A stretch of 5,176 nt of DNA from a virus (lineage: Duplodnaviria > Heunggongvirae > Uroviricota > Caudoviricetes), in IMG/VR virus record IMGVR_UViG_2585427755_000007; one strand, written 5' to 3'. The notes beneath the pieces are model-generated. The model was given only the letters and a program-made list of their open reading frames with translations. It was not told where the DNA came from and ran no database searches. Shown here piece by piece: positions 1 through 5,176 of this stretch. Position 1 is the first letter of the stretch, and every line of letters starts with the position of its first letter. Both the position numbers and the translations under genes were made by a program.

Positions 1-107
1 CCCCTACTCCGGTTTTCGAGACCGACCCGATCATCAAACGAAACATAAAATTAGCTCACATTATGAGGAAAGGTATCTTTTTGCGCTATGTAAATTCAAA
101 GGGTTAG

Positions 108-977
<870 letters not shown>

Positions 978-999
978 GTCTTTAAGTGATAAGCATAAA

Positions 1000-1048
1000 C
1001 CGCAGCACGATCTTCTTGCATACGACGTGCTACGGTTTCATTTATCTC
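1000..1048. terminator. Candidate bidirectional hairpin between the convergent GIY-YIG and invertase genes
   Basis: Stem CCGCAGCACG (1000..1009) pairs with CGTGCTACGG (1026..1035) across a 16-nt loop (one C-A mismatch on this strand, a G-U wobble on the other), followed by T-rich TTTCATTTATCT. Weak by eye; overlaps the invertase stop. Confidence 0.3.
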
Positions 1049-1592
1049 CGACCGGAAACTTCTTATACAGTGTCGATATACCAACATCATAGATGATCGC
1101 CACCTTCTGGCGAGGAACGCCTGATGCAATTAATCGTCCGGCCTGCTCCCATTGTTCTGGTGTAAGTTTGGGGCGACGTCCACCAATTCGTCCCTGTGCG
1201 CGAGCTGCTTCCAGTCCAGCTTTTGTTCGTTCAACAATCAGTTCACGCTCCATTTCAGCCAGGGCACCCATCACATGAAAGAAAAAGCGCCCCATTGGGG
1301 TACTGGTATCAATTGAATCCGTCAGACTACGAAAGTTGATGCCTCGTTCGCGCAACTCCTCCACCAGCACGACAAGATGCCGCATACTGCGCCCCAGTCG
1401 GTCCAGTTTCCAGACCACCAGCGTGTCACCTGCCGATAATGTCCTGAGCAGCTTTTTCAGTCCTGGTCTGTCGGACTTTGTACCGCTTATCTTGTCTTCA
1501 AAAATCAGCTCACATCCTGCACAGTTCAGCGCATTACGTTGTAGATCTGTGTTCTGGTCATTTGTTGACACACGTACATAGCCAATAAGCAT
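1038..1592 (-). CDS. pinE: Serine DNA invertase, Hin/Gin/Cin/Pin family (184 aa)
   Basis: N-terminus MLIGYVRVSTNDQ carries the catalytic Ser motif of small serine recombinases; conserved LVVWKLDRLGRS and GRFFFHVMGALAEMERELI blocks; C-terminal HTH (GVPRQKVAIIYDVGISTLYKK). The 184-aa length and the neighbouring tfa/stf cassette resemble e14 PinE; the exact paralogue (pinE versus gin/cin/pinQ/pinR) is not certain. Confidence 0.9.
   Translation of the reverse strand: MLIGYVRVSTNDQNTDLQRNALNCAGCELIFEDKISGTKSDRPGLKKLLRTLSAGDTLVVWKLDRLGRSMRHLVVLVEELRERGINFRSLTDSIDTSTPMGRFFFHVMGALAEMERELIVERTKAGLEAARAQGRIGGRRPKLTPEQWEQAGRLIASGVPRQKVAIIYDVGISTLYKKFPVGDK
1477..1577. promoter_or_regulatory. Predicted Fis-dependent recombinational enhancer inside the invertase 5' coding region (approximate)
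   Basis: In Hin/Gin/Cin systems the enhancer lies in the first 100-200 bp of the invertase gene. The 5' coding DNA here (GTGTCAACAAATGACCAGAACACAGATCTACAACGTAATGCGCTG, as read in the 3585..4139 copy) resembles what I recall of the hin 5' region. Fis sites not mapped. Confidence 0.25.
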
Positions 1593-1646
1593 GAGAAATA
1601 ACCCTGTAAAAATCCGGGATCATGCCATCTGAGCCGAATAACTGCA

Positions 1647-1672
1647 TTTTCTAAAAGGTTGGTTTGGGAGAA
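1647..1672. promoter_or_regulatory. 26-bp pix/gix/hix-like crossover site: TTTTCTAAAAGG-TT-GGTTTGGGAGAA
   Basis: Two imperfect 12-bp inverted half-sites around a 2-bp core (1659..1660). The inner half-site, read on the opposite strand as TTCTCCCAAACC, is close to the gix/hix half-site TTATCCAAAACC / TTCTTGAAAACC. The site sits 54 bp upstream of the invertase start and exactly at the repeat/cassette junction. Confidence 0.7.
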
Positions 1673-2017
1673 GCGGCAAAGAGGAATGTGGGGACAGGAG
1701 AAAATCAGGTACCGGATATGAACAGCTTTGGTAACTCATTGACCGCCAATGGATACCAGAAATTACCTGGGGGGATGATTATTCAATGGGGGAGTTTTTC
1801 TGTCTCACCAACCGGAGGAAGTGTTGGAACAGTTGATATAACATTACCTGTAGCTTTCCCTGCTGCTTGTCGTTCGGTAAACGCTCTTATTTCAACTAAT
1901 GATCCTTCTGCCCGTTCTGTGGGCTTTGATATTGGAAGTACCAACAGAACTAAAATCAGATTTACTTACACTTCTGCTACACCAAATTCAATTTACTGGA
2001 TGGCTGTGGGGTATTAA
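1664..2017 (+). CDS. Tail-fibre C-terminal variable segment (Sv), a start-less cassette exon; frame open from 1655
   Basis: Frame is open from the TAA at 1652..1654; the M in the ORF track is a TTG; first residues KVGLGE are encoded by the crossover site. Followed 2 nt later by a tfa gene. Tail-fibre assignment rests on position and organisation, not on a recognised domain. Confidence 0.55.
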   Translation: MGEAAKRNVGTGENQVPDMNSFGNSLTANGYQKLPGGMIIQWGSFSVSPTGGSVGTVDITLPVAFPAACRSVNALISTNDPSARSVGFDIGSTNRTKIRFTYTSATPNSIYWMAVGY

Positions 2018-2019
2018 CT

Positions 2020-2451
2020 ATGGAAAAGACATATTATTTTAATCCCTCTGATTCGGGATTTTATATTTCACCAGATAGCCAAACCATTCCTGAGAACGCT
2101 ACGAAAATAAACTTTACTATTTATTCTGAGTTCGCAGGAGTTGCATGGCCTGATGGTAAAATACTTGGTTCAGATAAAAATGGTTTTCCAGCATGGCAGG
2201 ATGCGCCACCACTTACCAGCGAAGAATTAATCTCAATCGCTGAATCAAATAAACAGCGATTAGTTAATCAGGCCAACGAATACATGAACAGTAAACAATG
2301 GCCTGGTAAAGCGGCGATTGGTCGTCTGAAAGGTGAGGAACTGGCGCAATATAATTTGTGGCTGGATTATCTGGACGCACTGGAACTGGTCGATACTTCC
2401 AGTGCGCCAGATATTGAATGGCCTACTCCTCCGGCAGTTCAGGCCAGATGA
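2020..2451 (+). CDS. Tail fibre assembly protein (Tfa/U family, 143 aa)
   Basis: ATG at 2020, 2 nt after the Sv stop. C-terminal motif LWLDYLDALELVDTSSAPDIEWPTPP is the conserved Tfa C-terminus. Confidence 0.8.
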   Translation: MEKTYYFNPSDSGFYISPDSQTIPENATKINFTIYSEFAGVAWPDGKILGSDKNGFPAWQDAPPLTSEELISIAESNKQRLVNQANEYMNSKQWPGKAAIGRLKGEELAQYNLWLDYLDALELVDTSSAPDIEWPTPPAVQAR

Positions 2452-3025
2452 CATCCGGCGCGGTACTGGTATCTGTTGCCGTCACCGCGTCAATGTAATC
2501 CAGCACAGTGTTAAGTCGGGTGGTCTCTGCCTGCATCAGCTTCCGCCCGGCCTGCAATTTCAGTTGAATCAGACTAATGGAAGCCATTGCAGTATCAATC
2601 AGTGACTGACGTTGTGCTTCTGCCGCGTCTACTGCGGCGCTATGCTGTGTCTCAGTATCCGTCACCCATTTCTCACCATCCCATTTATCGTATGGCGTTA
2701 ACGGGGCGATAGTGGTTGTTTTTTCGGGGTAATCACCCGGAGTTGTGATTTCTTTGGCGTCTCCCGTTTCGGTGTTATAGACGATTTCACCGCGATGGTC
2801 TGGTACATATTCCCATGAGTTAAAATCTGCAGAGCGGCAGATTGCATAACCAGCTTTGTAGGTGCCTGGAGCATCTAAACAGGAATATGCCGGAATGCCG
2901 ACACCAACAGCAAGATATTCAGTTGAAGCTGAAATATACTCCCGACTCATGACGTCAAAGTTATAAACAGTAATTTCTCCTGCCATAGTGGCAATTAATT
3001 CACTGTTTAATTCTGCGTTATTCAT
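2423..3025 (-). CDS. tfaE: Tail fibre assembly protein (Tfa/U' family, 200 aa), TfaE-like
   Basis: C-terminal motif VLDYIDAVTATDTSTAPDVIWPELP. Start ATG shares a base with the upstream stop (TAATG at 3023..3027), indicating translational coupling to Sv'. The 200-aa length matches what I recall for e14 TfaE. Confidence 0.8.
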   Translation of the reverse strand: MNNAELNSELIATMAGEITVYNFDVMSREYISASTEYLAVGVGIPAYSCLDAPGTYKAGYAICRSADFNSWEYVPDHRGEIVYNTETGDAKEITTPGDYPEKTTTIAPLTPYDKWDGEKWVTDTETQHSAAVDAAEAQRQSLIDTAMASISLIQLKLQAGRKLMQAETTRLNTVLDYIDAVTATDTSTAPDVIWPELPEE

Positions 3026-3513
3026 TATGCAGCCCTCACAATATAGTTAAAAGCGACATTTCGTGGGCGTGTTTCATTCGCACCTGCAGGTTTAGTCGTT
3101 GCCGCAACAACACCACCCTCTGTAATAGCCTGGTTGGGAATTGGGTAATTATCGAAGTCAATGGCCGGAGACAGGGGCGTGATTTGTTTTAAAATCGTGG
3201 TGCCTGAAAAACTTCCCAGAGTCTGGTCGTTAGTTCGTGAAGTCCAGATTCCCCAATAGTGGTTATGACTGACAATCGCACCGTCCTGAAGCGTTAATAA
3301 TCCCCTTCCGTTATCCACTCCACGTCCGTCATCCCAGCCACGAATAAACTCACCGCGTAAATCAGGCAATTTATTTGTCGGGTAAGCCTTTGCCAGTTCC
3401 GGGTATTCTTCAGCAGAAAAAGCCGCACCGTTGCATTTCAGCCAGCCTGTCGGCGGGGGGGCTGAAGGCCACGGAACAGGGACACCAACAGGTAATGCAG
3501 AGCCTTCTCCCAA
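3025..3513 (-). CDS. stfE: Tail-fibre C-terminal variable segment (Sv'), StfE-like start-less cassette exon; frame open to 3522
   Basis: Contains a phage-tail-collar-like block (LPDLRGEFIRGWDDGRGVD) and ends ...RPRNVAFNYIVRAA, typical of Mu S / P1 S-type fibre tips. Annotated start is TTG; the frame begins inside the crossover site with the same KVGLGE residues as Sv. About 165 aa, close to the roughly 166-aa e14 StfE fragment. Confidence 0.7.
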   Translation of the reverse strand: MGEGSALPVGVPVPWPSAPPPTGWLKCNGAAFSAEEYPELAKAYPTNKLPDLRGEFIRGWDDGRGVDNGRGLLTLQDGAIVSHNHYWGIWTSRTNDQTLGSFSGTTILKQITPLSPAIDFDNYPIPNQAITEGGVVAATTKPAGANETRPRNVAFNYIVRAA

Positions 3514-3530
3514 ACCAACCTTTTAGAAAA
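3505..3530. promoter_or_regulatory. 26-bp pix/gix/hix-like crossover site: TTCTCCCAAACC-AA-CCTTTTAGAAAA
   Basis: Mirror of the 1647..1672 site, core at 3517..3518, 54 bp upstream of the invertase ATG at 3585. Confidence 0.7.
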
Positions 3531-3584
3531 TGCAGTTATTCGGCTCAGATGGCATGATCCCGGATTTTTACAGGGTTATTTCTC

Positions 3585-4139
3585 ATGCTTATTGGCTATG
3601 TACGTGTGTCAACAAATGACCAGAACACAGATCTACAACGTAATGCGCTGAACTGTGCAGGATGTGAGCTGATTTTTGAAGACAAGATAAGCGGTACAAA
3701 GTCCGACAGACCAGGACTGAAAAAGCTGCTCAGGACATTATCGGCAGGTGACACGCTGGTGGTCTGGAAACTGGACCGACTGGGGCGCAGTATGCGGCAT
3801 CTTGTCGTGCTGGTGGAGGAGTTGCGCGAACGAGGCATCAACTTTCGTAGTCTGACGGATTCAATTGATACCAGTACCCCAATGGGGCGCTTTTTCTTTC
3901 ATGTGATGGGTGCCCTGGCTGAAATGGAGCGTGAACTGATTGTTGAACGAACAAAAGCTGGACTGGAAGCAGCTCGCGCACAGGGACGAATTGGTGGACG
4001 TCGCCCCAAACTTACACCAGAACAATGGGAGCAGGCCGGACGATTAATTGCATCAGGCGTTCCTCGCCAGAAGGTGGCGATCATCTATGATGTTGGTATA
4101 TCGACACTGTATAAGAAGTTTCCGGTCGGAGATAAATGA
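3585..4139 (+). CDS. pinE: Serine DNA invertase, Hin/Gin/Cin/Pin family (184 aa), identical second copy
   Basis: Protein identical to 1038..1592(-). Candidate RBS AGGG about 9 nt upstream of the ATG. Transcribed away from the invertible segment, as pin/gin/cin are. Confidence 0.9.
   Translation: MLIGYVRVSTNDQNTDLQRNALNCAGCELIFEDKISGTKSDRPGLKKLLRTLSAGDTLVVWKLDRLGRSMRHLVVLVEELRERGINFRSLTDSIDTSTPMGRFFFHVMGALAEMERELIVERTKAGLEAARAQGRIGGRRPKLTPEQWEQAGRLIASGVPRQKVAIIYDVGISTLYKKFPVGDK
3600..3700. promoter_or_regulatory. Predicted Fis-dependent recombinational enhancer inside the invertase 5' coding region (approximate)
   Basis: Mirror copy of 1477..1577; same reasoning. Not mapped. Confidence 0.25.
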
Positions 4140-4177
4140 AACCGTAGCACGTCGTATGCAAGAAGATCGTGCTGCGG
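4129..4177. terminator. Candidate bidirectional hairpin between the convergent invertase and GIY-YIG genes (mirror copy)
   Basis: On this strand: CCGTAGCACG (4142..4151), 16-nt loop, CGTGCTGCGG (4168..4177), then TTTATGCTTATC. A 10-bp stem with one G-U wobble. Confidence 0.3.
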
Positions 4178-4199
4178 TTTATGCTTATCACTTAAAGAC

Positions 4200-5069
<870 letters not shown>

Positions 5070-5176
5070 CTAACCCTTTGAATTTACATAGCGCAAAAAG
5101 ATACCTTTCCTCATAATGTGAGCTAATTTTATGTTTCGTTTGATGATCGGGTCGGTCTCGAAAACCGGAGTAGGGG

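What the first reader, a model, noticed from the sequence alone, without database searches (positions are those of the whole stretch)
1652..1681. Both tail-fibre tip segments are headless: no ATG, frame opens inside the crossover site, TAA stop two codons upstream of the core
On the + strand the Sv frame reads TAA(1652..1654)-K-V-G-L(TTG)-G-E-A-A-K. The Sv' frame on the - strand is the mirror (stop at 3523..3525). In Mu, P1 and e14 these variable exons are expressed only as fusions to a constant N-terminal tail-fibre region that reads through the crossover site. Here both are preceded by the invertase promoter region and an in-frame stop, so neither receptor-binding tip can be made as a full fibre from this locus as written. 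The cassette may be a cryptic remnant (the e14 tail-fibre gene in K-12 is itself a fragment), an RBD reservoir served in trans, or a sign that the left flank is not the true genomic neighbour.
Basis: seen in the sequence. Interest (0 to 1): 0.65.

Follow-up and report, generated by a model that had tools for sequence, protein, structure and literature searches.

The report
Palindromic misassembly of e14 invertible segment
The two "headless" tail-fibre tips are what you get when a draft-genome assembler walks out of the well-known flip-flop DNA segment of E. coli prophage e14 into the invertase gene on both sides; in real genomes one side is always the missing tail-fibre head, so the finding is ordinary.

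Summary
The sequence observation is correct. A TAA (1652-1654, mirrored at 3523-3525) sits in frame two codons before the crossover core in front of both tail-fibre tips, and no constant exon is present. The cause is that the window is a palindrome. Bases 1-1673 and 3504-5176 are 100% reverse-complementary and reach both ends of what is one entire draft contig (JOSJ01000022.1). The same GIY-YIG gene, pinE-type invertase and crossover site therefore appear on both sides of the 1830-bp e14-type P segment. None of 5,426 complete E. coli genomes has this layout. All 18 real loci examined have one invertase on one side, and on the other a 99-aa constant tail-fibre exon (MHRIDTK...TALENLGLGE) that reads through the crossover site, preceded by ymfQ and Mu-like baseplate genes. 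Both orientations occur in nature, even between sibling strains, and published work shows they coexist in clonal cultures. That coexistence gives an assembler all four junction types. The "cryptic remnant" and "reservoir in trans" readings are not supported. The TAA itself is real: it is a minority allele of the silent, invertase-proximal end, where K-12 has an open 14-codon leader with its own ATG.

The parts
1..1673 (.). Left arm of the perfect inverted repeat. It is the same DNA as the right arm, written in reverse complement.
   Evidence: I1: arms 1-1673 / 3504-5176, 100% complementary.
204..977 (+). LEM-3-like GIY-YIG domain protein (257 aa), copy 1. In real genomes it is the single gene just beyond pinE, convergent with it.
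   Evidence: PF22945, E 3.6e-14.
1038..1592 (-). pinE-type serine DNA invertase (184 aa), copy 1.
   Evidence: PF00239 E 1.3e-51; PF02796 E 3.9e-13; Gin structure 3uj3, E 1.1e-95; 96% identical to K-12 PinE.
1622..1654 (+). Remnant leader in the tip frame: ATG 1622, ten codons, then TAA 1652-1654. K-12-type alleles have an open 14-codon leader here.
1647..1672 (.). 26-bp crossover site of the invertase-proximal type, TTTTCTAAAAGG TT GGTTTGGGAGAA, with the core dinucleotide at 1659-1660.
   Evidence: Alignments to real genomes break here.
1674..3503 (.). Unique 1830-nt body of the invertible P segment.
   Evidence: 99.3% identical, full length, in complete genomes; found in both orientations.
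1664..2017 (+). Tail-fibre tip Sv (StfP-type, Gp53-like C-terminal domain). The frame is open from 1655.
   Evidence: PF21882, E 1.5e-18; fused to the constant exon in L001 and L004.
2020..2451 (+). Tail-fibre assembly chaperone for Sv (TfaP-type).
   Evidence: PF02413, E 4.7e-30.
2423..3025 (-). Tail-fibre assembly chaperone for Sv' (TfaE-type).
   Evidence: PF02413, E 4.8e-30.
3025..3513 (-). Tail-fibre tip Sv' (StfE-type, phage tail collar domain). The frame is open from 3522.
   Evidence: PF07484, E 6.7e-15; fused to the constant exon in L002, L003 and L005.
3505..3530 (.). Mirror copy of the invertase-proximal crossover site (core 3517-3518). It contains the mirror TAA at 3523-3525.
3585..4139 (+). 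pinE-type invertase, copy 2 (identical).
4200..4973 (-). LEM-3-like GIY-YIG protein, copy 2 (identical).
3504..5176 (.). Right arm of the perfect inverted repeat.

Best explanation
The window is a chimeric, palindromic contig of the ordinary e14-type Pin inversion switch of E. coli. In the real chromosome the order is: Mu-like baseplate genes, ymfQ, a 99-codon constant tail-fibre exon (Sc), a crossover site, the segment [tip Sv, chaperone, chaperone', tip Sv'], a second crossover site, pinE, and the GIY-YIG gene. PinE is a Gin/Hin-type serine invertase. It flips the segment between the two 26-bp sites, so Sc is fused in frame to either Sv or Sv'. The other tip then lies next to pinE without the constant exon. 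Flipping goes on during growth, so the sequenced DNA contained all four junctions: Sc|Sv, Sc|Sv', pin|Sv and pin|Sv'. The assembler left the segment through the pin junction at both ends, so it wrote the single pin/GIY-YIG flank twice, in opposite orientations, and stopped at the same graph node on each side. Shown here: the palindrome, the whole-contig status, the real layout in finished genomes, both orientations in nature, and the breakpoint lying in the crossover site. Inferred: the assembler's path, and the mixed orientation of this particular DNA preparation. The TAA is a genuine allele of the pin-proximal (silent) end. At any moment it affects only one tip.
For: (1) Arms 1-1673 and 3504-5176 are 100% complementary and reach both ends. 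(2) The window is the entire 5176-bp contig JOSJ01000022.1 of draft assembly GCA_000713655.1. (3) No complete E. coli genome out of 5,426 covers 80% or more of the window in one place. The best coverage is 68%, which equals one arm plus the segment, and the alignments end at 3518/3527 or start at 1650/1659, inside the crossover site. (4) The pin-proximal 81 nt are single-copy in 46 of 46 genomes that have them. (5) All 18 real loci examined have one pin 5' end. Sixteen showed one Sc-side site (CTCTCGAAAACC TT GGTTTGGGAGAA) plus one pin-side site; in L016 and L017 the pattern search found only the pin-side site. Only the window has two pin copies and two pin-side sites. (6) The 10 places shown for the identical invertase protein (9 chromosome-scale records and one 14-kb contig) each have a single invertase. 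Nine show baseplate, fibre, chaperone, chaperone', tip' (not called in L011), pin, and all but L011 have GIY-YIG beyond pin. In L015 an IS replaces the left side. (7) The same segment occurs in both orientations in finished genomes, including the sibling strains JE86-ST02 and JE86-ST05 at the same chromosomal site with the same TAA allele. (8) The exact repeat shared by the two real sites is only 15 nt (TTGGTTTGGGAGAAG). Both pin|Sv and pin|Sv' junctions can therefore appear in one assembly only if both orientations were in the reads, or if pin is truly duplicated. (9) Clonal K-12 cultures hold both e14 orientations at about 1:1 (PMC4272514) or with about 30% inverted (PMC12529663). (10) Palindromic contigs are a documented short-read assembly error (PMC9455707). 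Another assembler turned exactly this 1830-bp segment into a stand-alone circular 'plasmid' record, NZ_CP148396.1.
Against: No reads, coverage values or assembly graph for GCA_000713655.1 were available, so the artefact is inferred from comparison and not demonstrated on this sample. I could not retrieve the other contigs of this assembly to show one that ends in the Sc exon at the crossover site. A very recent real inverted duplication would also give 100% identical arms. The assembler and k-mer size are unknown: a search for the WGS accession in the literature found nothing.
Confidence: 0.9

Rival explanations
1. The arrangement is real. In this strain a local inverted duplication put a second copy of pinE plus the GIY-YIG gene in place of the constant exon and baseplate side. 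The cassette is then flanked by two invertase genes, and neither tip can be joined to a fibre shaft.
For: The sequence as deposited reads this way, and identical arms fit a very recent duplication. Rearranged variants of this locus do exist: an IS replaces the left flank in L015, and L008 carries an odd pin-Sc join.
Against: 0 of 5,426 finished genomes have it, and the pin-proximal sequence is single-copy in 46 of 46 genomes. The arms end exactly at both contig ends, which is expected if the same graph nodes were written twice and would be an odd coincidence for a real duplication. A short-read assembler would normally collapse a real 1.7-kb perfect repeat, not resolve it. A crossover between sister chromosomes in opposite switch states would give this join only as a dicentric or acentric product (inference from geometry).
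Confidence: 0.04
2. Cryptic remnant: the constant exon has been lost from this prophage, and the cassette survives only as a decaying pair of tip fragments next to the invertase.
For: e14 is a defective prophage in K-12, where stfE is annotated as a pseudogene. The TAA allele removes even the short leader ORF.
Against: Loss of Sc does not explain the duplicated 1673-nt flank. All four ORFs of the segment are intact and 99% identical to copies that are fused to Sc in finished genomes. Genomes with the same TAA allele (L005, L006, L018, L020) keep Sc and the full baseplate module.
Confidence: 0.03
3. A reservoir of receptor-binding domains served in trans: the tips are supplied to a constant exon located elsewhere in the genome by recombination between distant sites.
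For: PinQ of prophage Qin can invert the e14 segment in trans, so the recombinase can act from a distance (PMC12529663). This concerns the enzyme, not the sites.
Against: In every real locus the constant exon is directly adjacent in cis. Gin/Hin-type invertases are known to be strongly biased towards inversion between sites on the same supercoiled molecule (established knowledge, not tested here).
Confidence: 0.01
4. An artefact of a different kind: the genome is in a single orientation and the two crossover sites were collapsed purely because they are repeats, or a fold-back chimeric read was used.
For: It is also an assembly error and would give a similar contig.
Against: The exact repeat shared by the real sites is only 15 nt, which is shorter than any usual k-mer or overlap. 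A fold-back chimera would be palindromic through its centre, whereas the central 1830 nt are unique.
Confidence: 0.02

Closest known systems
Invertible P segment of E. coli K-12 prophage e14 with PinE (stfP-tfaP-tfaE-stfE-pinE)
   Same: Same gene order and gene families. The invertase is 96% identical to K-12 PinE. The inner half-site and core are the same (TT GGTTTGGGAGAA), as is the Sc-side outer half-site in the real relatives. The StfE-type tip and TfaE-type chaperone are the same. Both orientations are seen.
   Different: As written, the window has pinE on both sides and no stfP head, which I attribute to misassembly. The pin-proximal outer half-site is TTTTCTAAAAGG where K-12 has TTTTCATAAACG, and this creates an in-frame TAA where K-12 has an open leader with its own ATG. 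The gene beyond pinE is a convergent LEM-3-like GIY-YIG gene instead of mcrA. The StfP-type tip is a different allele. The segment body is 1830 nt against 1797 bp for the K-12 P segment, as each was delimited (PMC12529663).
Phage Mu G segment/Gin and phage P1 C segment/Cin
   Same: A serine invertase of the same family: the Gin crystal-structure sequence matches at E 1.1e-95. Two alternative tail-fibre C-terminal exons, each with its own chaperone, are switched onto one constant exon by inversion.
   Different: The constant exon of the e14-type fibre is only 99 aa, and the element sits in a Mu-like baseplate module of a largely defective prophage. The sequences of the tips differ. The comparison with Mu and P1 site sequences rests on memory and was not tested here.
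Palindromic (hairpin-path) contigs in short-read assemblies
   Same: Perfectly identical arms that run to both contig ends, duplicated gene sets annotated on opposite strands, and a turning point at a repeat or recombination site (described as an assembly error in PMC9455707).
   Different: The centre here is not a simple fold-back. It is a genuine 1.8-kb unique invertible segment, so the artefact reflects real biological heterogeneity (two switch states in one culture) and not only a library or graph error.

Membership tests
Gin/Hin/Cin/Pin DNA-inversion switch (e14 P-segment type) | Small serine recombinase with an N-terminal resolvase catalytic domain and a C-terminal HTH | tested here: met
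   PF00239 E 1.3e-51 and PF02796 E 3.9e-13. Gin (3uj3) E 1.1e-95; 96% identity to K-12 PinE.
Gin/Hin/Cin/Pin DNA-inversion switch (e14 P-segment type) | Catalytic serine in the N-terminal YVRVSTxxQ motif | tested here: met
   The sequence begins MLIGYVRVSTNDQ. That this serine is the catalytic residue is established family knowledge.
Gin/Hin/Cin/Pin DNA-inversion switch (e14 P-segment type) | Two 26-bp crossover sites (12-2-12) in inverted orientation bounding the segment | tested here: met
   Sites at 1647-1672 and 3505-3530. In the window both are of the pin-proximal type.
Gin/Hin/Cin/Pin DNA-inversion switch (e14 P-segment type) | One crossover site lies inside a tail-fibre gene, so that a constant N-terminal exon reads through it into the tip | tested here: not met
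   Not met in the window: there is an in-frame TAA before both tips and no Sc exon. Met in 16 of the 18 real relatives, where the frame reads ...TALENLGLGE-tip. In L016 and L017 the Sc-side site was not picked up by the pattern search. I take this failure as the signature of the misassembly, not as evidence against the family.
Gin/Hin/Cin/Pin DNA-inversion switch (e14 P-segment type) | A single invertase gene adjacent to one end of the segment | tested here: not met
   The window has two identical copies. All 18 real loci have one.
Gin/Hin/Cin/Pin DNA-inversion switch (e14 P-segment type) | Two alternative tips, each followed by its own tail-fibre assembly chaperone, in opposite orientation | tested here: met
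   Gp53-like_C plus Caudo_TAP on the + strand, and Collar plus Caudo_TAP on the - strand.
Gin/Hin/Cin/Pin DNA-inversion switch (e14 P-segment type) | The segment is found in both orientations | tested here: met
   L001 vs L002, L004 vs L003, and L006 vs L005 (sibling strains). Coexistence in clonal cultures is reported in PMC4272514 and PMC12529663.
Gin/Hin/Cin/Pin DNA-inversion switch (e14 P-segment type) | Fis-bound recombinational enhancer in the 5' part of the invertase gene | not tested
   Known for Gin, Hin and Cin from the literature (my own knowledge). No scan was done here.
Palindromic-contig assembly artefact | Arms 100% identical and extending to both ends of a whole contig | tested here: met
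Palindromic-contig assembly artefact | The turning point coincides with a repeat or recombination site where the graph branches | tested here: met
   The arms end at 1673/3504, at the inner edge of the 15-nt shared repeat of the crossover site. Alignments to real genomes break in the site.
Palindromic-contig assembly artefact | The arrangement is absent from finished genomes of the same locus | tested here: met
   0 of 5,426 genomes; single copy in 46 of 46; 18 of 18 loci normal.
Palindromic-contig assembly artefact | Read depth of the arms equals that of the centre, and reads link the centre to another flank | not testable with these tools

The most novel reading that the evidence does not exclude
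The deposited arrangement is real. A strain would then carry the P segment flanked by two identical, divergent pinE/GIY-YIG modules with no constant exon. That would be a free-standing two-invertase cassette whose only possible products are short, leaderless tips started at the TTG inside the crossover site. A weaker but likelier novelty also remains. The TAA allele of the pin-proximal leader, exact in 20 finished genomes, naturally abolishes the K-12-type StfE/StfE2 product, which a 2025 paper reports as an anti-T2 effector.
Probability: 0.04. Interest if true: 0.4.

Novelty: not a real feature. Interest (0 to 1): 0.1.

Why it matters
Mainly as a caution. Actively flipping segments put both orientations into one DNA preparation, and assemblers then produce palindromic contigs. 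For this same locus another assembly even produced a 1830-bp record deposited as a circular plasmid. Such contigs duplicate genes and hide true neighbours, which can mislead annotation and pangenome counts. There is also a small biological point. The in-frame TAA is a real minority allele of the invertase-proximal end. In K-12 that end has an open leader whose fusion product (StfE2) was recently reported to block phage T2 adsorption. Strains with the TAA allele should be unable to make that product from the leader ATG, and this is cheap to test.

Tried and rejected
(1) I searched the literature for the WGS accession JOSJ00000000 to learn the assembler and strain, and found nothing. (2) I tried to read Plasterk & van de Putte 1985 (PMC554175) and Mehta et al. 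2004 (PMC331406) for the original pix-site and e14 descriptions. Neither is held, so the comparison with published gix/cix/hix/pix sites rests on memory and on the 16-nt repeat quoted in PMC12529663. (3) A consensus promoter scan of 900-2100 found 2 sites against 1.9 expected, and none in the pin upstream spacer 1593-1646. (4) A whole-window search of the phage collection gave at most 35% coverage (phage pro483, P2-like phages carrying an invertase) and no palindromic layout. (5) I looked up the exact 117-aa headless Sv to find other contigs of this type. It occurs only in this contig. (6) I considered a fold-back chimeric read and a collapse of the crossover repeats in a single-orientation genome. 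I rejected both, because the centre is unique and the shared exact repeat is only 15 nt. (7) I considered a sequencing error creating the TAA. I rejected it because the same 81 nt occur exactly in 20 finished genomes. (8) I did not use the large protein-homology, structure-prediction or metagenome scans, because DNA-level comparison with finished genomes already answered the question.

Full report
**Observation.** On the + strand the frame that continues into the first tip reads MPSEPNNCIF*KVGLGEAAKRNVG, with TAA at 1652-1654. On the - strand the mirror frame reads MPSEPNNCIF*KVGLGEGSALPVG, with the stop at 3523-3525. After each stop the only candidate start is the TTG of the 'GLGE' motif (1664 and 3513). 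No constant tail-fibre exon exists anywhere in the window.

The mirror is not limited to the crossover sites. Positions 1-1673 and 3504-5176 are a perfect, 100% complementary inverted repeat that reaches both ends of the window, leaving 1830 unique bases in the middle. Each arm carries a LEM-3-like GIY-YIG gene, a 184-aa serine invertase, a 54-nt spacer and a 26-bp crossover site (TTTTCTAAAAGG TT GGTTTGGGAGAA). The unique centre carries a Gp53-like tip and a chaperone on one strand, and a collar-domain tip and a chaperone on the other. The window is the reverse complement of an entire contig, JOSJ01000022.1 (5176 bp), of the NCBI draft assembly GCA_000713655.1.

**What the locus really looks like.**
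- The central 1830 bases occur at 99.3% identity and full length in finished E. coli chromosomes, inside prophage e14 and its relatives.
- In those genomes the layout is always: Mu-like baseplate genes, ymfQ, tail-fibre gene, chaperone, chaperone', tip', pinE, then mcrA or the GIY-YIG gene.
- The segment is found in both orientations: L001 vs L002, L004 vs L003, and the sibling strains JE86-ST05 (L006) vs JE86-ST02 (L005). The siblings carry the prophage at the same chromosomal position next to paoCD.
- Whichever tip faces ymfQ is fused in frame to a 99-aa constant exon, MHRIDTKTAQ...GTVKTALENLGLGE, which reads straight through the crossover site.
- The other tip lies next to pinE.
- All 18 independent real loci I examined have exactly one pinE. 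In 16 of them the search found one constant-side site (CTCTCGAAAACC TT GGTTTGGGAGAA) and one pin-side site; in L016 and L017 it picked up only the pin-side site. The window alone has two pinE copies and two pin-side sites.

**Is the window's arrangement ever real?**
- No finished genome out of 5,426 holds 80% or more of the window in one place. The best is 68%, which is one arm plus the segment. The alignments stop at 3518/3527 or start at 1650/1659, inside the crossover site.
- The 81 nt between pinE and the inner edge of the site are single-copy in all 46 genomes that contain them.
- The 10 places shown for the identical invertase protein (9 chromosome-scale records and one 14-kb contig) each have a single invertase. 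Nine have the normal baseplate-to-pin layout, and in the tenth (L015) an IS replaces the left flank.

**How the contig most likely arose.** The exact repeat shared by the two real sites is only 15 nt (TTGGTTTGGGAGAAG), and PMC12529663 quotes 16 nt for K-12. That is too short to confuse an assembler by itself. The contig contains both a pin|Sv junction and a pin|Sv' junction. One genome in one switch state has only one of these. The reads must therefore have come from a mixture of the two states, which is the documented behaviour of this switch:
- about 1:1 in clonal K-12 MGY cultures (PMC4272514);
- about 30% inverted in BW25113, and about 49% when PinE is over-produced (PMC12529663).

With four junctions in the graph, the segment is a node that branches at both ends. 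A walk that takes the pin branch at both ends writes the single pin/GIY-YIG flank twice in opposite orientations and ends at the same node on each side. That is exactly what we see. Palindromic contigs are a recognised short-read assembly error (PMC9455707). The same locus defeated another pipeline in a different way: RefSeq holds a 1830-bp circular 'plasmid pZ1323HEC0010-6' (NZ_CP148396.1) that is precisely this segment and encodes nothing but the two tips and two chaperones.

The steps that are inferred and not shown are the assembler's path and the mixed state of this particular DNA preparation. I had no reads, depth values or sister contigs.

**Mechanism of the real element.**
- The invertase is 96% identical to K-12 PinE. 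It matches the Gin crystal-structure sequence at E 1.1e-95 and has the resolvase catalytic domain and HTH, with the YVRVST serine motif.
- By established knowledge of the Gin/Hin/Cin/Pin family, it cuts both 26-bp sites at the central dinucleotide (TT/AA, 1659-1660 and 3517-3518) and exchanges the halves. This flips the segment and swaps which tip and chaperone follow the constant exon.
- That the TAA-allele site is recombination-proficient is supported by the opposite orientations in JE86-ST02 and JE86-ST05, both of which carry it.

**The TAA itself.** It is real, and it belongs to the invertase-proximal end only. In K-12-type alleles this end reads ATG ATG CCA TTT GC. ... TTC ATA AAC GTT GGT TTG GGA GAA. 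That is an open 14-codon leader with its own ATG (MMPFA[RC]YF[CF]IFINV-GLGE), and it is why stfE is annotated there.
- That leader region is found in 1,784 finished genomes, 542 of them exact to the L001 query.
- The window's allele (TTC TAA AAG GTT) is exact in 20 genomes and related in 46. I also saw it in L005, L006, L018 and L020.

This matters slightly because a 2025 paper reports that the K-12 pin-proximal fusion StfE2 (stfE leader plus the Gp53-like tip) blocks adsorption of phage T2 (PMC12529663). The TAA allele cannot make that protein from the leader ATG. Whether the TTG at 1664, preceded by AAGG at 1655-1658, can substitute is unknown.

**Verdict.** 'Both tips headless' is not a property of a genome but of a palindromic misassembly of an already well-known inversion switch. 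Interest is low. The residual novelty is the minority TAA allele at the silent end, plus the practical lesson about invertible segments in assemblies.

Noticed in passing
L022 = NZ_CP148396.1, 1-1830 (equivalent to window 1674-3503): A RefSeq 'complete' E. coli assembly (strain Z1323HEC0010) lists a 1830-bp circular 'plasmid pZ1323HEC0010-6'. It is exactly the invertible P segment (99.1% identical to the window's centre) and encodes only the two tips and two chaperones. It is almost certainly an assembly-graph artefact deposited as a replicon.
   Followed up: partly
L008 = JNNF01000123.1 (2108 bp), junction at about 1217-1220: Another draft contig that encodes the identical Sv' protein joins pinE at about codon 30 head-to-head to the constant exon Sc at nt 72, with only about 3 nt of overlap. 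L008 1-1220 matches L018 6308-5089 in reverse, and L008 1218-2108 matches L018 2865-3755. This is consistent either with a real inversion of about 2.2 kb that destroys pinE, or with a second kind of chimeric contig.
   Followed up: partly
window 1622-1660 (mirror 3517-3555); L001-L004 and L009-L017 for the other allele: There are two alleles of the invertase-proximal outer half-site and leader. TTTTCATAAACG gives an open leader with its own ATG (the leader region matches in 1,784 genomes). TTTTCTAAAAGG gives an in-frame TAA (exact in 20 genomes). The second allele would prevent the K-12-type StfE/StfE2 product.
   Followed up: partly
window 204-977 / 4200-4973; L012, L013, L015-L017 at 5616-9478: The cargo beyond pinE varies. 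K-12-type e14 has mcrA in the same direction as pinE. This lineage has a convergent LEM-3-like GIY-YIG gene, often followed by a DNA cytosine methylase plus an EcoRII-like endonuclease, or in other loci by a kinase or an ATP-dependent nuclease. This looks like a variable defence-gene hotspot at the prophage end.
   Followed up: no
window 1-10 and 5167-5176: Finished genomes stop matching the arm at window position 1, 7 or 10, and carry different genes beyond it (flxA region, AraC regulator, ATP-dependent nuclease, kinase). The contig therefore ends at a mosaic boundary.
   Followed up: no
window 2423-2451: The two convergent chaperone genes overlap by 29 nt at their 3' ends, as tfaP and tfaE do in K-12 (L009 2518-2546).
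   Followed up: no
L005 (JE86-ST02) vs L006 (JE86-ST05): Two sibling clinical isolates differ at this locus only by the orientation of the segment. This shows that the deposited orientation of a 'complete' genome is a snapshot of a flipping population.
   Followed up: yes
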